From: Escherichia phage vB_EcoS_XY2
Strand: one strand, 5' to 3'
DNA: 44,138 nt
Sequence record: MN927226.1
Part shown: positions 1-44,138 of the stretch, piece by piece
Layout of the letters: each line of letters begins with the position of its first letter
Position numbering within the stretch: the stretch's first letter is position 1
The notes under the pieces: generated by a model
The model's database searches: none
What the model was told of the DNA's origin: nothing
The model's input: the letters and a program-made list of their open reading frames with translations, nothing else
Made by a program: the position numbers and the translations under genes

Positions 1-40
1 TCTGGCAGGCCCCACGCTTTTACCTCATATCTCTGTACCA

Positions 41-223
41 TTACTCCACCCCTTCCACATGTGTAACTGACCCACAGTTCGCGCACTCGACGTAATCAGG
101 GTACTGGTCTTTGTATTTCTGTAGCTCAGCTTCAAGTTTCGCGTAATCTTCGTAAAGCACTAACACGCCCTCAACATCAGGAGTAAACCCGAATATCTGG
201 TCGTAGGTATATCTCTGCACCAT
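41..223 (-). CDS. small early protein (60 aa), tandem paralog of CDS 43783..44052
   Basis: ORF MVQRY...CANCGSVTHVEGVE; AGGAGA RBS before ATG at 223; last 87 nt identical to 3' end of 43783..44052; stop overlaps next ATG (TAATG). Confidence 0.6.
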   Translation of the reverse strand: MVQRYTYDQIFGFTPDVEGVLVLYEDYAKLEAELQKYKDQYPDYVECANCGSVTHVEGVE

Positions 224-3575: not shown

Positions 3576-5794
3576 ATATTGTTTTTGCAACGCTGCGTAA
3601 CACATTCGATAAAAACCCTGTAGCGCGTGAAATGCCGCTGGAGCAGTTTGTCGAGTATGTCTGCGATACATCGAAGCGTTTATCCGTGGACCCGTCATGG
3701 ACTAAGGAAGAGTACGACGCTGCCAAGATTAAACAGAAAGCTATTGCGCCTGTTGGTGGTCGCCGTAAAAACGCTATCCTGGAAGACAGTGTGGTTAAGT
3801 TCGATTTCGACCATCTCAACCGTACTCAGTACCGCGACCTGACACGCAAATTCAAGAACGCGCCGTTCTTCAATATTCTGCACACAACGGCATCGCATCA
3901 GCACGCATGTAAAAATGGAGATTACGCTTTCCGCGTTCTGGTTCCAGCTCGCACGCCGTTTAACTCTAACGACGCGTGGATGGTGCAACGTGCTATTTGT
4001 GCAGAGTTAGAAATAGACGAAGCGTTGCGCGACCACTGCACAGAAGACGGCAACCGCCTTATCTACCTGCCGCATAAAGAGTCGAAGATAACGGTTACAG
4101 AAGGGCGTGTTATCCGTGCTGAGCGGTACATCAAGAAAGCCGAAGAGATGGGGTTGCGTAAGCGTGAGGCTAAAACACTTGCCGCCGATGAGTATGGGCT
4201 TAACGCTGATATAGCGCATTTCTGCGAAGCCGAGCTTGGCCTTGACGCTTTATCTTCCGGGCGCGGGTACGAAGTGCCATGCCCTAACGAACATCTGCAT
4301 ACAGGCAAGGGCTCCACCAGCATAATGCTCGACGGTAAAGAAGTGCGCTTTGTCTGCCAGCATACAAACAACGGCGCTTGCACCGAGCTTAACCGTAGGC
4401 AGCATTTGGCCCTGCGTATGTGTGGCCTACCCGACGAGCTTAACATAGATAAGCAACCTATCAGCATTAACAGCATTCGTGCGGCTCTGCCTGATTTACC
4501 GGAAGAAGAGATTGAAGAACTACACCGCACAGAGAACGAGGACCCAGTAACTTGCAGCCTCGACGACCTGGAAGACGATGCGGAATCAGAGGAGGACGAG
4601 TTACCAGAACCGGTAAAGGCTGATTTCGTCGTTGAAGGGTACATGCCGTCGGATTGTATCTGGGATATCGTCGGGGAATCTGGCACGTACAAATCGTTCT
4701 ATACGCTGGGGATGATGTACCTCAGCGCCGCCGGGTACAGGTTTGCGGGGGCGGATACCCAGCGTTGCCACCATTTCTATATTGATGGTGAGGGTGGCGC
4801 AGCTACACGCACCCGTATTGATGCACTAGCGGCTAAATATGGCGGGGAAGGTAAAGATTATGTACACGTCATCGATATGGGCGAAGTCGGCAAACTTAAA
4901 AGCCTGATTAAGTTAATGCGCGAAACTGCTGGCGACGAGCCAATTGGCATGGTTGCGTTCGACACCCTTAACCAGACCCTGGCACTGACGATTGATAAGT
5001 TCGACGAGAACAGTTCATCAACAGCAATCGGCATGGGTAAAGTTATCGCCATTCTGAAAGAAGTACGCGATGCAACTAAAGCCGCAGTAGGCGTTGTCCA
5101 CCATACGCCGAAGGGTGGAAAGAAAGCACGCGGCAGTGGGGCGCTGTATGCGGGTGTTGACGTGGAACTGACAATCGAACGTGCAACCGACCGTCAAATA
5201 AACGTATACCACTCGAAATTTAAGCACGGTCCTCAACAGAAAACGGTTGGCATGGTGCTGGAGTCTGTGCAGTTCCGCGAAGCTCCGCCGCCGAAAGAGT
5301 ACCGTGCGGTTGAGTTCCTGGGGGGCACAGAAGAATACGGCACAATCGTAAACCTGGACCTTCCTGAACCACACAAGGCGCTTGTGTTGATGCCGTGGGG
5401 TTTCGAGCCGTTCAAAACTGACGAGGAGAAAGAGCGGGAAGAAGGGTTGACGAAAGAAGGTAAGCAAAAAGTAAAGGAAGAAGTTAAACGCGGCAGGGAT
5501 GAAGTAAGGAAGGAGTCAATACTTTCGGCACTGGAAGACCTGCAACAGTCAGATGACACAGGTCGCGGTTTTACTCAGCAGCAGATAGTGGCTCGTTCCG
5601 GTGACTTCTCTGTGACTAACACCCATCTTGATAAAATGTTGAAAGATGGAGAACTAATGCTTGGTTGCGATGCTAACGGCGAAGTAGTACCGAGAACATA
5701 TCGTATACCCGAAAGAATAGGGGATAGATTAAGGCCGAAGACACTATACGAACCAAATGAGATGCTGGTGGTGACAGAGGAGGATTTGGAATAG
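3572..5794 (+). CDS. DNA primase/helicase-like replication protein (740 aa)
   Basis: Cys/His cluster CPNEHLHTGKGS...CQHTNNGAC; Walker-A-like GESGTYKS; position at head of replication module. Confidence 0.75.
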   Translation: MNIVFATLRNTFDKNPVAREMPLEQFVEYVCDTSKRLSVDPSWTKEEYDAAKIKQKAIAPVGGRRKNAILEDSVVKFDFDHLNRTQYRDLTRKFKNAPFFNILHTTASHQHACKNGDYAFRVLVPARTPFNSNDAWMVQRAICAELEIDEALRDHCTEDGNRLIYLPHKESKITVTEGRVIRAERYIKKAEEMGLRKREAKTLAADEYGLNADIAHFCEAELGLDALSSGRGYEVPCPNEHLHTGKGSTSIMLDGKEVRFVCQHTNNGACTELNRRQHLALRMCGLPDELNIDKQPISINSIRAALPDLPEEEIEELHRTENEDPVTCSLDDLEDDAESEEDELPEPVKADFVVEGYMPSDCIWDIVGESGTYKSFYTLGMMYLSAAGYRFAGADTQRCHHFYIDGEGGAATRTRIDALAAKYGGEGKDYVHVIDMGEVGKLKSLIKLMRETAGDEPIGMVAFDTLNQTLALTIDKFDENSSSTAIGMGKVIAILKEVRDATKAAVGVVHHTPKGGKKARGSGALYAGVDVELTIERATDRQINVYHSKFKHGPQQKTVGMVLESVQFREAPPPKEYRAVEFLGGTEEYGTIVNLDLPEPHKALVLMPWGFEPFKTDEEKEREEGLTKEGKQKVKEEVKRGRDEVRKESILSALEDLQQSDDTGRGFTQQQIVARSGDFSVTNTHLDKMLKDGELMLGCDANGEVVPRTYRIPERIGDRLRPKTLYEPNEMLVVTEEDLE

Positions 5795-6695: not shown

Positions 6696-6974
6696 ATGAT
6701 TTACCAACTCTACCGCGCCGTAGACAGGCGGGATAACACAGAGGCGTTGTGGCTGTTGCGTGCGCCGTCCGGTGCACACCAGATGGAAGAGATGGCGTAC
6801 TTAGGCAAAGTACCGCGTCCTAAAGATATAGGTCGTCACGTGTCGCGGATTAAACGCACGACATTCGCCAAGCCCGACTTTTATGTCTTCGAGTCGATGT
6901 ATGGATGGGCCTTACATTGCGACCACAAGACACGGCATTTAATTGACCAGTGGGAGAGCAGAGCATGGTTTTAA
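6696..6974 (+). CDS. hypothetical protein (92 aa)
   Basis: ORF track; GGAGGGG RBS. Confidence 0.6.
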   Translation: MIYQLYRAVDRRDNTEALWLLRAPSGAHQMEEMAYLGKVPRPKDIGRHVSRIKRTTFAKPDFYVFESMYGWALHCDHKTRHLIDQWESRAWF

Positions 6975-8206
6975 AGGAACGCGGCGGAAATAACGATGTA
7001 CACGCCTTACTGTCGCCGTCTGGGGCTAAAAAGTGGCTTAGCTGCGCGGCATCACTGGCCTGTGAAAAAGATATTCCTAACACGTCAGGTAAAGCTGCGG
7101 TATTAGGCACAGCAATGCACACCATAGCTGAGATGCACCTTAACCAGTACATCAAAGGTACTGCGCTGCCGTTAGAGCGCGAAGTAGGCGCTTACGTGCT
7201 GGATGAGGGTAAAGGCCAGATTAAGGCGCTAATCAGTCCGATGAAAGGTGCTGTACTGATTACGGCGGATATGATTGAGCAGGTGCGCAAGTACACCGAC
7301 TACTGCAAAGCGATTATAGATGTAGCGACTTACGCCAAGCTGGAAATGCGCGTCAATCTTACTGAGGTATTGCATCCGGGGTATGAAGGCGTTGAGACGT
7401 TCGGAACCGCTGACATTGTTGCCGTTCAGGAACTGGCTAACACCGATGAGCACATGCTAATCATCGGCGACCTTAAAACCGGGCGACATCGTGTCGAAGC
7501 GAAAGAAAACAAGCAGCTTATGCTTTACGCTCTCGGTGTTTATCGCCGACTCAAGAGACGTTATAACATAACAGTTGTTCGTCTGGTAATCTTCCAGCCG
7601 TACACTGGCGGCGCGTCGGAGTGGGACATCTCGGTTGAAGGCCTTGAACTGTTCACTAAGTTCGCACAGAAACGCGCGCTGTTAGCTATCGATGCGTATT
7701 TCCGTGGGAAGAAGAACCTGAAAGCGTCGGACTTCAAGCCGTCGGTCGATGGTTGTCAGTGGTGTCGGTTCTCAGAACAGTGCGCCGCGCGTACAAAAAC
7801 CGTCAACTCTGTGCTGGCGGAAGAACTGGAGGACGATTTTGCGCTTGAGCTTACGCCAGAGCAACTCGTAGCTGAGTATGAGAAGTTGCCGCTGTTGCGC
7901 CAGCACATCGACAAGGTTGAGAAAGCTATGGCCGTCGCATTGCATTCCGGTAAGAAGGTGCCGGGGTACAAGCTGGTTGAAGGACGCCAGGGTAATCGTG
8001 CGTGGAAAGACGCAGAGAAAGTAGCAGAACTCTACGGCGACAAGCTGACTAAAGAAGTGCTCATGTCACCTACCGAAGCTGTTAAAGTGATACCGGAAGA
8101 AGAACTGAAAGACTTCATCACACGTAAGCCGGGTGCACCATGTGTTGCAACGGCAGACGACAAGCGTCCTGAGTGGGATCAGGTAACAGAGGAGGATTTG
8201 GAATGA
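6965..8206 (+). CDS. PD-(D/E)XK nuclease, DUF2800/Cas4-like, with C-terminal Cys cluster
   Basis: GDLKTGRHRVEAKENKQLMLYALGVY nuclease core and CQWCRFSEQC; ATG at 6965 after GGGAGAG. Confidence 0.7.
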   Translation: MVLKERGGNNDVHALLSPSGAKKWLSCAASLACEKDIPNTSGKAAVLGTAMHTIAEMHLNQYIKGTALPLEREVGAYVLDEGKGQIKALISPMKGAVLITADMIEQVRKYTDYCKAIIDVATYAKLEMRVNLTEVLHPGYEGVETFGTADIVAVQELANTDEHMLIIGDLKTGRHRVEAKENKQLMLYALGVYRRLKRRYNITVVRLVIFQPYTGGASEWDISVEGLELFTKFAQKRALLAIDAYFRGKKNLKASDFKPSVDGCQWCRFSEQCAARTKTVNSVLAEELEDDFALELTPEQLVAEYEKLPLLRQHIDKVEKAMAVALHSGKKVPGYKLVEGRQGNRAWKDAEKVAELYGDKLTKEVLMSPTEAVKVIPEEELKDFITRKPGAPCVATADDKRPEWDQVTEEDLE

Positions 8207-8463: not shown

Positions 8464-9090
8464 ATGGGTATTAAACTGAATCTGCGTAAAGTAAACACTG
8501 CATGGGTTAACGTATTTGAACGTGAAAAAGACCGTGAAAACGATGATGGCTCAATCACTAAAGGCCAGTACAGCGCGACTATCATCCTGCCGTATGACCA
8601 TGCTCAAATCGATGCACTCTACGGCACCGTTTACGCTGTAGTTGAAGAAGCGTTAGGCGCAGCCGCTGCCGAGAAATGGATGAAGTCCAACTACGGTGAA
8701 GGTAAGCACATGGATAAATGCGCGATTAAAGACATTGCCGAGCGCGACAATCCGTTTGAAGACTTCCCGGAAGGCTTCTACTTCAAAGCGAAGGCACAGA
8801 AACAGCCGCTGATTGTAACCTCTAAAAAAGGTGAGACTCAGGTAGAGCAGGACTTCAACGTAGACGGCGAACAGATTGAAGGTGAACAGGTTTACAGCGG
8901 ATGCTTAGCTAACGTAAGCGTTGAAATCTGGTTCAGCCAGAAATACAAAGTCCTCGGCGTTAACCTGCTGGCGATTAAATACGTTGGCGAAGGCAAAGCG
9001 TTCGGCGGTTCTAAAGTCGCTGCGAGCGTCAATGACCTGGAAGACGACGAAGAAGATGAAGCACCGCGCCGCGAACGTCGCCGCCGCTAA
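8464..9090 (+). CDS. DUF2815-like putative ssDNA-binding protein
   Basis: ORF track; sits between DUF2800 nuclease and DNA polymerase; acidic tail DLEDDEEDE. Confidence 0.55.
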   Translation: MGIKLNLRKVNTAWVNVFEREKDRENDDGSITKGQYSATIILPYDHAQIDALYGTVYAVVEEALGAAAAEKWMKSNYGEGKHMDKCAIKDIAERDNPFEDFPEGFYFKAKAQKQPLIVTSKKGETQVEQDFNVDGEQIEGEQVYSGCLANVSVEIWFSQKYKVLGVNLLAIKYVGEGKAFGGSKVAASVNDLEDDEEDEAPRRERRRR

Positions 9091-25782: not shown

Positions 25783-26913
25783 ATGGCCCAGAAGAAAATA
25801 ACCGACGAACAGTTACAGGAAGAATTGAACGCCGGGATGAAGAATGTAGACATCGCCCGTAAATACGGCATCTCAGACCGAGTTATTCGTATCCGTAAAG
25901 CGAAGCTGGCTAAGAAAGGTGTAGGCCACGGGCGTGACGTTAGCCACCTTGTCCCAGACGGCTACAAGATTAAAGGGACGTCGTCTCTGGTAGACGAGTT
26001 CGGCAATACTAAGTTGCAATGGGTTAAGACAGACACCGACGCTGAACGTCAGGTCGAGTTGATGAAAGCCGTGATTGAAGGCATGAAGTCAGAGATTACG
26101 CCAGTTGCGCCGGCTAAAGCGACTCGAGCCAAACGCGACGACAAGCTACTCAATCTTTACACGGTATCTGATTTCCATCTCGGTATGCTTGCCTGGGCCG
26201 ACGAGAGCGGCGACGACTGGGATATAAAGATTGCGGAAGACCTGTTCTCTCGTTGGTTCGACGCGGCGTTTCAGAAAGCACCGGATGCAGGAACAGGAGT
26301 TATTAACCTGCTGGGTGATTTCGCGCACTTCGATAGTCTGGATGCCGTTACACCTGAGTCGCGTCACGTGTTGGACGCAGACACTCGCTACCAGAAACTC
26401 GTCCGCTACATGATTCGTATGGTACGCCGTGTTGTAGATATGGCACTGGTTAAACATAAAAATGTTCGCTTGCTTATCGTACAGGGGAACCATGACCCTG
26501 TAGGCTCTGTATGGCTGGCTGAAATGTTCACAGTTTTATATTCGAACGACAGCCGAGTGATTGTCGATACGTCGCCGGATGTTTACAAGATGGTGCAACA
26601 CGGAAAAACGACGTTGTTCTTTCACCACGGGCATAAGGCGCGATTCGATGCTATCGAACCGGTTATGATTGCCAAGTTCCGCAAAGCGTTCGGTGAGAGT
26701 GTTTACAGCTACGCCCACGTAGGCCACCTGCACCACCAGAAGATTGTAGAAAGCCGTAACATGATTGTTGAGCAACACCGCACCTTAGCGGCGAAAGACG
26801 CCTACGCCTCGCGCGGCGGATGGATGTCAGGCCGTAGTGCAAATGTAATTACTTATAGCGCCGAATATGGCGAGGTCGCACGTTTAACTATTTCACCGGA
26901 GATGCTGGGATGA
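25783..26913 (+). CDS. HTH domain fused to calcineurin-like metallophosphoesterase
   Basis: Ordered motifs SDFHLG, LLGDFAHFD, VQGNHDP, FFHHGH, HVGHLHH after an HTH-like N-terminus. Confidence 0.75.
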   Translation: MAQKKITDEQLQEELNAGMKNVDIARKYGISDRVIRIRKAKLAKKGVGHGRDVSHLVPDGYKIKGTSSLVDEFGNTKLQWVKTDTDAERQVELMKAVIEGMKSEITPVAPAKATRAKRDDKLLNLYTVSDFHLGMLAWADESGDDWDIKIAEDLFSRWFDAAFQKAPDAGTGVINLLGDFAHFDSLDAVTPESRHVLDADTRYQKLVRYMIRMVRRVVDMALVKHKNVRLLIVQGNHDPVGSVWLAEMFTVLYSNDSRVIVDTSPDVYKMVQHGKTTLFFHHGHKARFDAIEPVMIAKFRKAFGESVYSYAHVGHLHHQKIVESRNMIVEQHRTLAAKDAYASRGGWMSGRSANVITYSAEYGEVARLTISPEMLG

Positions 26914-41953: not shown

Positions 41954-42442
41954 TCAACCTTTCACCGCGCGCCCGATAGCCTCTGCCTCCTGCCACGGTT
42001 TACCGTCGAACAGCGCCAGACGACCAGCTGTACGGCGGCGCAGGCCGAGTAATGGTTTGCCGTTCTGGTTGATGAACAACGCCAGCTTAGCCCGCAGCGT
42101 CGCAACATCACCGGAACGCAGTGCCTTACCCGTACCGGTGGCAGCGGCAATCACACCAGCACCAGCGTTATAGACCAGGTCGCACACTGCATCGAACTGT
42201 GCCTGTGTCAGGGAGTGGTGTGCCGCTGCGTCAACCGCAGCTACGGCCTTAGCCATATCACGATTCAGTAACAGGAGTCCCTGACCCTTCGTAATCTTCT
42301 GCCCTTCATACACATGAGGGCCGTAGCTTCCGTAGCCAATAGTAAGGTACTTCTCGTTCGGCGTAGCACGATACGCAGTTCCACGGAACCCCTCGAATGC
42401 AGCGGTAAAATGCAATCCATTATCTGAAATGTTTCGAGACAC
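41954..42442 (-). CDS. endolysin (T4-lysozyme-like, GH24)
   Basis: FEGFRGTAYR...YLTIGYG and TQAQFDAVCDLVYNAGAG motifs; GTG start 42442 with GGAGG RBS. Confidence 0.8.
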   Translation of the reverse strand: MSRNISDNGLHFTAAFEGFRGTAYRATPNEKYLTIGYGSYGPHVYEGQKITKGQGLLLLNRDMAKAVAAVDAAAHHSLTQAQFDAVCDLVYNAGAGVIAAATGTGKALRSGDVATLRAKLALFINQNGKPLLGLRRRTAGRLALFDGKPWQEAEAIGRAVKG

Positions 42443-42692
42443 GCTTATGTCCTCCGTATGACAGCCACGCCTGACGAATCTGGCGCAGCGCAACTAATGT
42501 GATTAATGTCTCAGGCAGCGTCGGAGACATGCTGCCCTGTAACAGGTGGATACATCCTGCGGCGCAGACAATAGCAGTCAGGATATAGAGCACCCGGCCA
42601 AATAGCCCGTCGTCAACGCTGGGATGATACACATTAAACAGCGATGTGCCTCCGATTGCCAGCATTACGGCAAACCAGAATAGCTCAGTCAT
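42420..42692 (-). CDS. two-TM holin/antiholin-like protein (90 aa)
   Basis: Two hydrophobic helices then basic C-terminus; internal ATG 42692. Confidence 0.5.
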   Translation of the reverse strand: MTELFWFAVMLAIGGTSLFNVYHPSVDDGLFGRVLYILTAIVCAAGCIHLLQGSMSPTLPETLITLVALRQIRQAWLSYGGHKRVSKHFR

Positions 42693-42993
42693 GTGGTCCT
42701 CCTGGGCGGGCAATATCGCCGCCCGATACGATACCGGACAGACGGGAATAGATAGGCATCCAGAGAATAGCGATAATGAAGCCCAGGCCTGCGATTTCAC
42801 GGTCGCCCGTGATTCCAAACCATTGAGCTGCGAGAGGTGCGCCAAATACGGCGCAAGTGAAGCCAGTTGCAATAAAGCAGAAGCCGTCGATAGGGCCGGA
42901 AATAGCGGACTTATGTTGCCTTAGTCCGATTACCCCTCCGGCTAGTGCGGCAGCGAGAAGCCACCCCGTCACAGTTTCAGTAAATTTATCCAA
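42685..42993 (-). CDS. holin (three predicted TM helices)
   Basis: Three hydrophobic segments in 102 aa upstream of endolysin; TTG start after GGAGGA. Confidence 0.6.
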   Translation of the reverse strand: MDKFTETVTGWLLAAALAGGVIGLRQHKSAISGPIDGFCFIATGFTCAVFGAPLAAQWFGITGDREIAGLGFIIAILWMPIYSRLSGIVSGGDIARPGGPHD

Positions 42994-43052: not shown

Positions 43053-43493
43053 TTATCCTAATAGTTGTTTGGTAATAATCTTGCCGCCGGTGTCAGGGTC
43101 GAACTTCGATGCAACTGCTACACCACCTTGCGCCGAATACCCACATTCCATAGCCGCTAGGGCATAAGGGGCGCCTGAACCAACGGCGGAAAAGCTGTCC
43201 GCAATCTGAATAACCAAACTAAGAGCACAATCCCAAGATTTATAGAACTCCACCCTACACAACGTTTCGATGTCTTTAACCCACACCAAGGCAGAGAAAT
43301 CAAAATCGTAGTGCTTAGGCACTAAAATACTATCGTCCTCCACTAAAAGGATACCAACCCCTGCATCGCCAGCCGCCCCAATAACAACAAATTCGTTCTC
43401 GTATATCTTTGTGTCTGTGTTGTAACTGTTACTCCCGCACACAACACGGGTATCACAGGCCATTGTCTTTCCGTCAAACGCGATAGTAGTCAT
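43053..43493 (-). CDS. HslV/proteasome-beta-like Ntn-hydrolase peptidase homolog (146 aa)
   Basis: N-terminal Met-Thr-Thr; AVGSGAPYALAA matches recalled HslV AIGSGGPYAQAA; ATGA coupling. Confidence 0.65.
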   Translation of the reverse strand: MTTIAFDGKTMACDTRVVCGSNSYNTDTKIYENEFVVIGAAGDAGVGILLVEDDSILVPKHYDFDFSALVWVKDIETLCRVEFYKSWDCALSLVIQIADSFSAVGSGAPYALAAMECGYSAQGGVAVASKFDPDTGGKIITKQLLG

Positions 43494-43783
43494 TTATGTC
43501 TCCAGATGTATTGTCGTCTCTGTGGTTTCGTCGGAATATCATCGTACCCCAGCGATTTCCAGTAATTAAATAGCCGGTTCGCGATAGCTGCGCGTTCCTT
43601 TGTTTTAAACTCACCGAGATTCACTGCCTTTCCGTTCTGGAATCCACAGGCGCGGATAGCTTTACGCCGTTCTTGTATCTCTGGGTACAGCACGTTACGG
43701 CGACGCTTGTGTATACGTGTCTTCGCTCTCGGTGACAGCGGCGCAAGGCCGCTTCGTTTCAGGATGTCAGTTGCTAACGACAT
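43490..43783 (-). CDS. basic hypothetical protein (97 aa)
   Basis: ATG 43783 overlaps stop of upstream paralog (TAATG). Confidence 0.55.
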   Translation of the reverse strand: MSLATDILKRSGLAPLSPRAKTRIHKRRRNVLYPEIQERRKAIRACGFQNGKAVNLGEFKTKERAAIANRLFNYWKSLGYDDIPTKPQRRQYIWRHK

Positions 43784-43869
43784 TACTCCACCCCTTCCAC
43801 ATGTGTAACTGACCCACAGTTCGCGCACTCGACGTAATCAGGGTACTGGTCTTTGTATTTCTGTAGCTC
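43781..43869. repeat. 89-bp direct repeat, copy 2 (copy 1 at 39..127)
   Basis: Exact 89-nt identity read directly; covers 3' end of a paralog plus start codon of next gene. Confidence 0.9.
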
Positions 43870-44052
43870 GGCGTTTACTTCTGCCAGTCTCGACACAAGC
43901 CCTTCTATTTCCTTGTCGGCGTCGGCTAGACGTTCCTGGTAATAGTCGTCCAGTTCCTTATAGCTGTCGTACTCTACATAATCGCCGTATGCGTACTCAG
44001 CCATCTCAGGCTCTGGCAGGCCCCACGCTTTTACCTCATATCTCTGTACCAT
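43783..44052 (-). CDS. small early protein (89 aa), tandem paralog of CDS 41..223
   Basis: MVQRYEVKAWGL...CANCGSVTHVEGVE; shares N-terminal MVQRY and identical C-terminal 29 aa with the 41..223 product. Confidence 0.6.
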   Translation of the reverse strand: MVQRYEVKAWGLPEPEMAEYAYGDYVEYDSYKELDDYYQERLADADKEIEGLVSRLAEVNAELQKYKDQYPDYVECANCGSVTHVEGVE

Positions 44053-44138
44053 TACTCCACCCCTTCCACATGTGTAACTGACCCACAGTTCGCGCACTCG
44101 ACGTAATCAGGGTACTGGTCTTTGTATTTCTGTAGCTC
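44012..44138. repeat. 127-bp terminal redundancy identical to positions 1..127
   Basis: Exact identity of window ends; runs through coding sequence. Confidence 0.95.

What the first reader, a model, noticed from the sequence alone, without database searches (positions are those of the whole stretch)
43053..43493. Phage-encoded HslV/proteasome-beta-like Ntn hydrolase next to the lysis genes
The 146-aa product begins Met-Thr-Thr (Thr left N-terminal after Met removal, as in Ntn threonine proteases) and carries AVGSGAPYALAA matching HslV AIGSGGPYAQAA (from memory), plus a GAAGDAGVG glycine-rich segment. It is shorter than host HslV (about 176 aa) and no HslU-like ATPase is encoded. With the DnaN-like gene this suggests a theme of shortened host-machinery homologs. 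It could be an active peptidase using host HslU or an interfering subunit.
Basis: partly seen in the sequence, partly recalled or inferred. Interest (0 to 1): 0.6.

Follow-up and report, generated by a model that had tools for sequence, protein, structure and literature searches.

The report
Known phage mini-proteasome homolog (PPH)
This phage gene encodes a stripped-down relative of the proteasome/HslV protease; it belongs to a phage family (PPH) that is already described but biochemically untested, and many sister phages have simply deleted it.

Summary
Window 43053..43493 (minus strand) encodes a 146-aa protein starting Met-Thr-Thr. It carries the HslV-like AVGSGAPYALAA motif and sits directly upstream of two holins and the endolysin. 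No HslU/Clp-type ATPase is encoded.

Profile, fold and residue tests all place it in the proteasome-beta/HslV/BPH threonine-peptidase superfamily:
- hhalign against E. coli HslV gives 97.6% probability.
- The AlphaFold model has pLDDT 94.
- Thr2 and Lys29 are invariant, and Asp14 and Ser106 nearly so, in 131 diverse relatives.

It is not an HslV orthologue. The HslV equivalog model scores 11 bits against a cut-off of 158. Helix H2, which forms part of the HslU tail pocket, is absent.

[quoted passage not shown] A 99.3%-identical protein is already annotated "peptidase HslV family" in phage Bas73.

The gene is under purifying selection but is optional. K1G, Bas70 and many other Kagunaviruses carry a clean ~421-nt deletion of it with an unchanged lysis cassette.

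Most likely it is an active peptidase that needs no partner ATPase. Its substrate is unknown. This is a known kind and of modest interest.

The parts
43053..43493 (-). CDS of the 146-aa PPH-type proteasome homolog (stop codon included)
43500..43503 (-). Shine-Dalgarno GGAG, 6 nt upstream of the ATG
   Evidence: Read directly from the sequence.
43490..43493 (-). ATGA overlap of the PPH start with the stop of the upstream 97-aa gene (probable translational coupling)
   Evidence: Sequence and ORF coordinates.
43488..43490 (-). Codon of Thr2, the predicted N-terminal nucleophile (Thr1 of the mature protein after Met removal)
   Evidence: Thr in 131/131 family members. Aligns with Thr1 of E. coli HslV, whose crystallised chains start at this Thr.
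43452..43454 (-). Codon of Asp14 (equivalent of Asp17 of HslV/proteasome)
   Evidence: Asp in 129/131, Glu in 2/131; hhalign column.
43407..43409 (-). Codon of Lys29 (equivalent of Lys33)
   Evidence: Lys in 131/131; hhalign column.
43368..43379 (-). Gly39-Ala-Ala-Gly42: oxyanion-hole loop (HslV G45...G48; proteasome Gly47 region)
   Evidence: Gly42 in 130/131, Gly39 in 109/131; hhalign.
43299..43358 (-). Residues 46-65: a 6-residue remnant of helix H1 plus a loop, in place of the long H1-H2 'apical' helix pair of HslV
   Evidence: DSSP of the AF2 model shows a helix only at 46-51 and none before strand 66. There is a gap of ~30 residues against HslV.
43173..43181 (-). Gly105-Ser106-Gly107 (GSG motif; Ser = Ser129 of the proteasome / Ser124 of HslV)
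   Evidence: G 131/131, S 122/131 (+6 Thr), G 131/131; alignments to HslV, BPH and beta subunits.
43089..43100 (-). Asp132-Pro-Asp-Thr135 (equivalents of proteasome Asp166 and Ser169 in the RD..SGG motif)
   Evidence: Asp132 in 127/131; Thr/Ser/Cys135 in 131/131; alignment to beta5/beta8 'RDaySGG'.
43071..43491 (-). Segment (~421 nt, boundaries +/-2 nt) absent from K1G, Bas70 and many other Kagunaviruses. The last 18 nt of the gene survive there as a remnant.
   Evidence: Alignment A3 and annotations of GU196277 and PQ850619; coverage pattern.
43490..43783 (-). Context: upstream 97-aa gene of unknown function (phrog_9632), conserved at this position in Guernseyvirinae
41954..42993 (-). Context: lysis cassette downstream (holin 42685-42993, holin 42420-42692, endolysin 41954-42439)
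   Evidence: PHROG hits: 2359 and 2508 (holins), 33703 and 7 (endolysin).

Best explanation
[quoted passage not shown] PPH is a minimal ~140-aa branch of the proteasome-beta/HslV/BPH superfamily of N-terminal-threonine peptidases.

Proposed mechanism:
1. The gene is transcribed with the rightward block of small genes that runs into the lysis cassette. It is translated from its own GGAG site, coupled to the upstream gene (inferred).
2. Host methionine aminopeptidase removes Met1, as it does for E. coli HslV, which also starts MTTI. This exposes Thr2 as the nucleophile; there is no propeptide (inferred from sequence and established HslV biology).
3. Thr2, Asp14 and Lys29 form the catalytic triad. 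The Gly39/Gly42 loop forms the oxyanion hole. Ser106, Asp132 and Thr135 support the site (shown by alignment and conservation; activity itself is not shown).
4. The protein probably forms homo-oligomeric rings through the retained core and the H3/H4 helices, burying its active sites (inferred only).
5. It works without a dedicated unfoldase. None is encoded or consistently linked, and the H1-H2 surface that HslV offers to HslU is largely gone. It would therefore cleave peptides, unfolded proteins or a specific target in the infected cell.

It is a conditionally useful accessory gene. It is not part of lysis, replication or morphogenesis, because many Kagunaviruses have deleted it.
For: Identity and fold:
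- PHROG 1040, E=8e-34.
- Family profile vs PDB: HslV 2e-12, beta5 2e-11, BPH 4e-10.
- hhalign vs E. coli HslV: 97.6%.
- AF2 pLDDT 94.4, pTM 0.89.
- Foldseek top hits are HslV, BPH and beta5, TMq 0.72-0.76.

Catalytic residues in 131 diverse relatives (30-43% identity to the query apart from five close homologues): T2 131/131, K29 131/131, D14 129/131, G42 130/131, G105 and G107 131/131, S106 122/131, D132 127/131. Of the 150 best cluster representatives, 139 start Met-Thr.

Selection: dN/dS is 0.10-0.19 against four relatives.

PPH features: 146 aa, phage-borne, H2 absent, no C-terminal helix.

No ATPase partner:
- None in the window or in the Bas73 annotation.
- None among the recurrent neighbours in 70 non-Guernseyvirinae viral loci, where neighbours vary: terminase, lysozyme, portal, and a small family I only guess from its sequence to be VRR-NUC-like.

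Dispensable: clean deletion in K1G and Bas70 with the lysis genes retained. The BASEL study reports that its Kagunavirus isolates behave very similarly in phenotype (PMC11990801); in that set Bas73 carries the gene, while Bas70 and, by its 65% coverage, Bas74 lack it.

Precedent for a proteasome homolog without an unfoldase: BPH (PMC5777263).
Against: - No biochemical data exist for any PPH. Activity, oligomeric state and substrate are all inferred.
- Isolated proteasome subunits are inactive outside the assembled ring (PMC8665760), and I could not model an oligomer.
- Loss of H2 and most of H1 could change or abolish ring assembly.
- This protein alone does not reach the Pfam PF00227 gathering score.
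- Part of the HslU-tail pocket (positions aligned to F54 and F57) is retained as Ile48 and Val51, so HslU binding is not strictly excluded.
Confidence: 0.7

Rival explanations
1. It is a functional HslV substitute. It assembles into HslV-like dodecamers that dock host HslU, which unfolds and feeds substrates. The phage thereby redirects the host ATP-dependent protease.
For: - Same MTTI N-terminus and GSG motif as E. coli HslV.
- HslV is among the best structural matches.
- The hosts (E. coli, Salmonella) have HslUV (general knowledge).
- The positions aligned with HslV pocket residues F54 and F57 remain hydrophobic (Ile48, Val51).
Against: - The HslV equivalog models TIGR03692 and NF003964 score 11 bits against cut-offs of 158 and 137.
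- Helix H2, carrying pocket residues Ala79 and Lys80, is absent and H1 is cut to 6 residues.
- BPH, which has no known unfoldase, is an equally good or better structural match.
- At the Asp166/Ser169 motif the family looks like proteasome beta subunits rather than HslV.
Confidence: 0.1
2. It is an interfering (dominant-negative) subunit or decoy. It poisons host HslV rings or titrates HslU, and so stabilises phage or host proteins that HslUV would otherwise degrade.
For: It is a shortened homolog of a host enzyme, carried by a virus without the partner ATPase.
Against: - A decoy does not need catalysis, yet Thr2, Lys29, Asp14 and the GSG glycines are invariant or nearly so across a family with 3628 cluster representatives.
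- Identity to HslV is only ~25% over the aligned columns.
- The loss of the apical helices makes co-assembly or HslU capture unlikely (inference).
- Homologs occur in chromosomal contexts in Acetobacteraceae, where a decoy role makes little sense.
Confidence: 0.05
3. It is a non-degradative Ntn enzyme. It would be a monomeric or small-oligomer, sequence-specific processing enzyme or transpeptidase/ligase (as connectase is among proteasome homologs), acting on one phage or host protein.
For: - Like connectase, it has lost helices from the H1/H2 face (PMC8665760).
- Fuchs et al. expect unprecedented quaternary structures among the new homologs.
- A specific, conditionally useful target would fit the patchy presence of the gene.
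Against: - The model's secondary-structure string shows no helix before residue 46, so a connectase-type helical insertion between strands S3 and S4 is not predicted.
- H3 and H4, which make the ring-ring contacts in proteasomes, are intact and uninterrupted.
Confidence: 0.1
4. It is part of the lysis programme, for example by processing or degrading a holin, antiholin or endolysin to time lysis.
For: - It sits immediately upstream of the two holins and the endolysin, with no promoter or terminator signal above chance between them.
- A lysozyme gene lies within a few hundred bp to 2.6 kb of the homolog in 7 non-Guernseyvirinae viral loci.
Against: - K1G, Bas70 and many other Kagunaviruses lack the gene but keep the holins (~87-94% DNA identity over matched segments) and an endolysin gene.
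- In other phages the neighbours are terminase, portal or a small nuclease-like gene instead.
- Lysis genes commonly sit at module borders (general knowledge).
Confidence: 0.03

Closest known systems
[quoted passage not shown]
   Same: About 140 residues; carried by tailed phages and prophages; Met-Thr start with no propeptide; Thr1/Asp17/Lys33/Gly47 equivalents retained; helix H2 missing; no C-terminal S12/H5 elements; nearest relatives are BPH and HslV.
   Different: I found no difference. Direct comparison with their representative (WP_042125023.1) was not possible. H1 in this model is very short (6 residues), and the paper does not comment on that.
BPH (Betaproteobacteria proteasome homolog; PDB 5ovs, 5ovt, 5ovu)
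   Different: BPH is ~185-200 aa, with full H1 and H2 helices and a long acidic pore loop. It forms tetradecamers and is a chromosomal gene in stress-regulated operons. The phage protein lacks H2 and that loop, and its quaternary state is unknown.
HslV (ClpQ), peptidase subunit of the HslUV ATP-dependent protease (E. coli; PDB 1e94, 1g3i, 1m4y)
   Different: It is thirty residues shorter. The apical helix H2 is absent and H1 is truncated, so half of the HslU C-tail pocket is missing. There is no hslU neighbour. It scores far below the HslV equivalog cut-offs. Its C-terminal 'FD..TGG' motif is of the proteasome-beta type rather than the HslV type.
20S proteasome beta subunits (Pfam PF00227, MEROPS T1)
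   Different: No propeptide, no alpha-ring partner, no H2 and no H5. It is ~60 residues shorter, and this protein alone falls below the Pfam gathering score.
Connectase (archaeal monomeric proteasome homolog, protein ligase; PDB 6zw0, 8jtu)
   Same: It is a proteasome homolog that has lost helices on the H1/H2 face.

Membership tests
Proteasome-beta/HslV superfamily (Ntn threonine peptidases, MEROPS T1, Pfam PF00227) | Thr (or Ser) as the first residue of the mature chain | tested here: met
   The sequence starts Met-Thr-Thr and no start codon lies further upstream. Thr2 is present in 131/131 relatives. It aligns with Thr1 of HslV, whose crystallised chains begin at that Thr. Met removal itself is inferred.
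Proteasome-beta/HslV superfamily (Ntn threonine peptidases, MEROPS T1, Pfam PF00227) | Asp17 and Lys33 equivalents completing the catalytic triad | tested here: met
   Asp14 in 129/131 and Lys29 in 131/131. Both fall in the columns aligned to HslV D17 and K33.
Proteasome-beta/HslV superfamily (Ntn threonine peptidases, MEROPS T1, Pfam PF00227) | Oxyanion-hole Gly loop and the GSG (Ser129) motif | tested here: met
   G39/G42 and G105-S106-G107 are conserved and aligned to HslV, BPH and beta subunits.
Proteasome-beta/HslV superfamily (Ntn threonine peptidases, MEROPS T1, Pfam PF00227) | Alpha-beta-beta-alpha Ntn sandwich fold | tested here: met
Proteasome-beta/HslV superfamily (Ntn threonine peptidases, MEROPS T1, Pfam PF00227) | Score above the Pfam PF00227 gathering threshold | tested here: not met
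   14.2 bits against a cut-off of 22.4 for this protein. However, 78 of 131 relatives hit PF00227 at E<=0.01, and the family profile hits HslV and beta subunits at E~1e-11 to 1e-12. This is a sensitivity limit of a single-sequence search, not evidence against homology.
Proteasome-beta/HslV superfamily (Ntn threonine peptidases, MEROPS T1, Pfam PF00227) | Peptide-bond hydrolysis by the N-terminal Thr | not testable with these tools
   I found no biochemical report on any PPH.
HslV proper (ClpQ; NCBIfam TIGR03692 / NF003964) | Score above the equivalog cut-off | tested here: not met
   11.4 bits against 157.75, and 11.1 bits against 137.
HslV proper (ClpQ; NCBIfam TIGR03692 / NF003964) | Apical helices H1-H2 forming the docking surface and C-tail pocket for HslU (F54, F57, A79, K80, Q114) | tested here: not met
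   H1 is reduced to residues 46-51 and H2 is absent in the model. There is a ~30-residue gap against HslV. Pocket residues are taken from PMC6429459.
HslV proper (ClpQ; NCBIfam TIGR03692 / NF003964) | An hslU partner gene, adjacent or in the same genome | tested here: not met
   No Clp/HslU-type AAA+ in the window or in Bas73. None among the conserved neighbours in 70 other viral loci.
HslV proper (ClpQ; NCBIfam TIGR03692 / NF003964) | Dodecamer of two hexameric rings | not testable with these tools
PPH (Fuchs, Alva & Lupas 2021) | About 140 residues, compact, no propeptide, no C-terminal S12/H5 | tested here: met
   146 aa (family median 146, range 135-165 in the alignment, which was preselected to 130-165 aa). 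Met-Thr start. The model ends with strand 139-143 after H4. Definition taken.
PPH (Fuchs, Alva & Lupas 2021) | Lacks helix H2 while keeping H1, H3 and H4 | tested here: met
   Helices at 46-51 (H1, short), 108-116 (H3) and 121-131 (H4) only.
PPH (Fuchs, Alva & Lupas 2021) | Encoded by tailed phages and their prophages | tested here: met
   The window is a Kagunavirus-like genome. Homologs are in 298 phage records and at least 374 viral contigs.
PPH (Fuchs, Alva & Lupas 2021) | Clusters by sequence with the PPH representative (WP_042125023.1) and next to BPH/HslV (group I) | tested here: inconclusive
   BPH and HslV are the nearest solved structures, as expected for group I. The representative's sequence is not in the held supplement, so no direct comparison was made.
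BPH | Chain of ~185-200 aa with full H1/H2 and an elongated acidic pore loop | tested here: not met
   146 aa, with no H2 and no long loop after H1. It is the best structural neighbour but not a member.
Connectase | Two-helix insertion between S3 and S4 covering the active site; close structural similarity | tested here: not met

The most novel reading that the evidence does not exclude
PPH is a free-standing viral 'mini-proteasome'. It would assemble into a ring of a new type, without the H1/H2 face and without any ATPase. It would destroy a specific host protein, such as an immunity or stress-response factor, or generate peptides. That would make it a conditionally beneficial counter-defence gene, and would explain why it is under purifying selection where present yet cleanly deleted in about two-thirds of Kagunaviruses.
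Probability: 0.15. Interest if true: 0.7.

Novelty: already known. Interest (0 to 1): 0.3.

Why it matters
Taken alone, this instance adds little. The family was described in 2021 and the gene is already labelled in GenBank.

Two points could still be useful:
- The common database label ("HslV family" or "ATP-dependent protease") overstates what is known. The protein fails the HslV-specific tests and has no ATPase, so "PPH-type proteasome homolog" would be more accurate.
- Natural isogenic-like pairs exist in a tractable E. coli K-12 system: Bas73 carries the gene, while Bas70 and Bas74 carry a clean deletion. No viral proteasome homolog has been tested experimentally in the literature I could search, so these pairs offer a cheap way to find out what one does.

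Tried and rejected
1. Single-sequence searches (Pfam, NCBIfam, PDB phmmer) gave only sub-threshold hits. A 131-sequence family profile was needed.
Ring formation therefore remains untested.
A narrower alignment worked but only samples relatives starting MTTIA[WFY]DG.
4. I looked for the PPH representative sequence in the paper's supplement and did not find it.
5. Lysis-module hypothesis: rejected because of the PPH-less Kagunaviruses.
6. Defence-system link: no PADLOC hit.
7. Expression timing: the K1B4 Kagunavirus transcriptome paper does not mention this gene. The promoter/terminator scan found nothing above chance.
8. Prohead-protease idea: in a few other viral contigs the homolog lies 2.6-3.4 kb downstream of the portal. 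In this phage it is far from the head genes, and it is dispensable in the genus, so I did not pursue this.
9. Literature searches for any experimental work on phage PPH or 'HslV family' proteins found none.

Full report
**What is there**

Window 43053..43493 holds, on the minus strand, a 146-codon ORF: MTTIAFDGKTMACDTRVVCGS...AVGSGAPYALAAMECGYS...FDPDTGGKIITKQLLG. The ATG is the first possible start after the upstream in-frame stop. A GGAG lies six nt upstream at 43500-43503. The ATG overlaps the TGA of the preceding 97-aa gene (ATGA, 43490-43493), so the two are probably translationally coupled.

Downstream on the same strand, after a 59-nt gap, come two holins (42685-42993 and 42420-42692) and the endolysin (41954-42439). 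A consensus scan found no promoter or terminator signal above chance between the ORF and the holins.

**Where the window comes from**

The window is a complete Kagunavirus-like siphophage genome (Guernseyvirinae). The region is 86-95% identical to many E. coli Kagunaviruses. The protein is 99.3% identical to Bas73_0068 of Escherichia phage GertrudWoker_Bas73, annotated "peptidase HslV family protein".

**Is it a proteasome/HslV-like Ntn hydrolase?**

Single-sequence searches are only suggestive:
- Pfam PF00227: E=0.034, 14.2 bits against a gathering score of 22.4.
- PDB phmmer: E=0.1 to BPH and 0.65 to HslV, over the GSG motif only.
- NCBIfam HslV equivalog models: 11 bits against cut-offs of 137-158.
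- PHROG 1040 ("peptidase HslV family") does match, at E=8e-34.

An exhaustive profile search found a very large family. It has 3628 representatives of 50%-identity clusters at E<=1e-3. Nearly all are 135-165 aa, and 139 of the best 150 start Met-Thr.

A 131-sequence alignment of these gave significant profile-level results (most members are 30-43% identical to the query):
- Against PDB sequences: T. maritima HslV 2e-12, proteasome beta5/beta8 2e-11, BPH 4e-10.
- hhalign against E. coli HslV: 97.6% probability, E=4.7e-12. I checked the HslV sequence against PDB 5ji3/1e94.

In that alignment the catalytic positions line up as follows:
- Thr2 = Thr1
- Asp14 = Asp17
- Lys29 = Lys33
- Gly39/Gly42 = Gly45/Gly48
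- Gly105-Ser106-Gly107 = the HslV GSG motif
- Against beta subunits, Asp132 and Thr135 match Asp166 and Ser169

Conservation across the 131 relatives is very high: T2 131/131, K29 131/131, D14 129/131, G42 130/131, G105 and G107 131/131, S106 122/131, D132 127/131.

AlphaFold2 with this alignment gives a confident model (pLDDT 94.4, pTM 0.89).
- Foldseek's best PDB hits are S. aureus HslV, T. denitrificans BPH, T. maritima HslV and beta5 (probability 1.00, TMq 0.72-0.76).

**What kind of proteasome homolog?**

The model has a helix of only six residues (46-51) where HslV has the long H1. It has no H2 at all. It then has H3 (108-116), H4 (121-131) and a final strand. The ~30 residues missing relative to HslV are exactly this H1-H2 segment.

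[quoted passage not shown] They describe it as follows:
- about 140 residues;
- found in tailed phages and prophages;
- adjacent to BPH and HslV in cluster maps;
- retaining the Thr1/Asp17/Lys33 triad and Gly47;
- lacking H2;
- without the C-terminal S12/H5 elements;

Every feature I could test is met. The one thing I could not do is compare directly with their representative WP_042125023.1, whose sequence is not in the held supplement.

The protein fails each HslV-specific test:
- It falls far below the equivalog score.
- There is no hslU-type gene in the window or in Bas73.
- The apical helices are largely missing. According to PMC6429459, the HslU C-termini insert into pockets between HslV subunits lined by Phe54 and Phe57 (H1), Ala79 and Lys80 (H2) and Gln114. 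The H2 half of that pocket does not exist here.

"HslV family" and "ATP-dependent protease" in GenBank are therefore loose labels.

**Context and evolution**

Homologs occur in 298 phage records: 258 Salmonella phages at ~63% identity, taken here to be Jerseyvirus-type, and about 36 Kagunavirus-type phages of Escherichia, Raoultella, Klebsiella and Shigella.

The flanking DNA, however, matches about 115 Kagunavirus-type records, and most of them cover only 50-70% of the query. In K1G (GU196277) and Bas70 (PQ850619), the 97-aa upstream gene is followed directly by the holin.

The alignment shows a clean ~421-nt gap corresponding to window 43071..43491. The last 18 nt of the gene survive there as a remnant (AAACCGTTATTAAGATAA against AAACAACTATTAGGATAA, 14/18 identical). 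The sister genus Jerseyvirus has the gene at the same locus. The simplest reading is an ancestral gene that was lost by deletion in many Kagunaviruses.

Where present, the gene is under purifying selection (dN/dS 0.10-0.19). The BASEL study describes its Kagunavirus isolates, which include Bas73 (PPH+) and Bas70 and Bas74 (PPH-), as behaving very similarly in phenotype (PMC11990801).

In 70 non-Guernseyvirinae viral loci the neighbours vary: large terminase in 8, lysozyme in 7, portal in 12, and a small family that I only guess from its sequence to be VRR-NUC-like in 8. No ATPase recurs. There is no PADLOC defence-family hit.

**Mechanism proposed**

Shown:
- homology, predicted fold and the conserved catalytic constellation;
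- absence of a propeptide;
- absence of H2;
- absence of an encoded unfoldase;
- dispensability within the genus;
- purifying selection.

Inferred:
- Met1 is removed by host methionine aminopeptidase, as for E. coli HslV. HslV has the same MTTI start, and its crystallised chains begin at Thr.
- Thr2 acts as the nucleophile, with Asp14 and Lys29.
- The protein forms rings through the retained core and the intact H3/H4 pair. These helices make the ring-ring contacts in proteasomes.
- It acts without an ATPase, like BPH, on peptides, unfolded proteins or a specific target.

The lysis-gene adjacency is most likely positional only. I found no experimental work on any PPH.

**Rivals**

I rate four alternatives as unlikely, for the reasons given in the rival section:
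- use of host HslU (0.1);
- dominant-negative or decoy subunit (0.05);
- connectase-like specific processing enzyme or ligase (0.1);
- a role in lysis (0.03).

**Verdict**

The feature belongs to a published, database-annotated family, so it is already known and its interest is modest. Its remaining value is practical: natural PPH+ and PPH- Kagunavirus pairs on E. coli K-12 give a ready system for discovering what a viral proteasome homolog does.

Noticed in passing
window 1-127 and 44012-44138: The first 127 nt of the window repeat its last 127 nt, as read. This looks like the terminal overlap of a circular (k=127) assembly, so the unique genome is about 44,011 bp and the window is a whole phage genome.
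   Followed up: partly
window 43781-43869 and 44050-44138 (the latter = 39-127): There is an exact 89-nt direct repeat with 269-nt spacing. It covers the 3' end (...ELQKYKDQYPDYVECANCGSVTHVEGVE*) plus the stop and RBS region of two adjacent small genes on the minus strand. The two genes have different N-terminal halves (MVQRYEVKAWGL... and MVQRYTYDQIFGF...). This suggests a recent partial duplication or gene conversion between neighbouring paralogs. The C-x-x-C motif hints at a zinc ribbon.
   Followed up: partly
window 43490-43783 (minus strand): The 97-aa gene translationally coupled to PPH (phrog_9632, unknown function; no Pfam or PADLOC hit) is conserved at this position in all 10 Guernseyvirinae loci, and it stays in place when PPH is deleted. 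Its basic sequence (KRRRN...; GKAVNLGEFKTKERAAIA) looks to me like an AP2-type DNA-binding motif, but no tool confirmed this.
   Followed up: partly
L097 (Falsiroseomonas algicola NZ_JAAIKB010000001.1) 286-2169 and 5001-5402; similar in L098, L103, L105, L106: PPH homologs (33-40% identity) are common in Acetobacteraceae genomes. In five loci they share the ruvX and aspartate carbamoyltransferase (pyrB) neighbours, which in L097 end ~3 kb upstream of PPH. This is a chromosomal rather than an obviously prophage context. It adds to the Pseudoalteromonas and Mesorhizobium exceptions noted by Fuchs et al.
   Followed up: partly
BFVD hits A0A1W6DWU9 (263 aa, 58% identity), A0A5B9NBU4, A0A6G5YGZ5, A0A2I7R6C7 (275-279 aa): Some phage relatives are nearly twice as long. 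They may be PPH domains with a C-terminal extension, like the 'RPC' group of Fuchs et al., or they may be mis-called starts. I did not examine them.
   Followed up: no
L019, L026, L028, L065, L070, L077 (viral contigs): In a subset of unrelated viral contigs the PPH homolog lies 2.6-3.4 kb downstream of the portal gene on the same strand, within or just after the head module. This raises the question of whether some PPHs act in capsid maturation.
   Followed up: no
window 6950-8206 (+), 8464-9090 (+), 25783-26913 (+): Among the large ORFs scanned to exclude an unfoldase are a DUF2800/PD-(D/E)XK nuclease, an Enc34-type ssDNA-binding protein and a weak calcineurin-like phosphoesterase.
   Followed up: no
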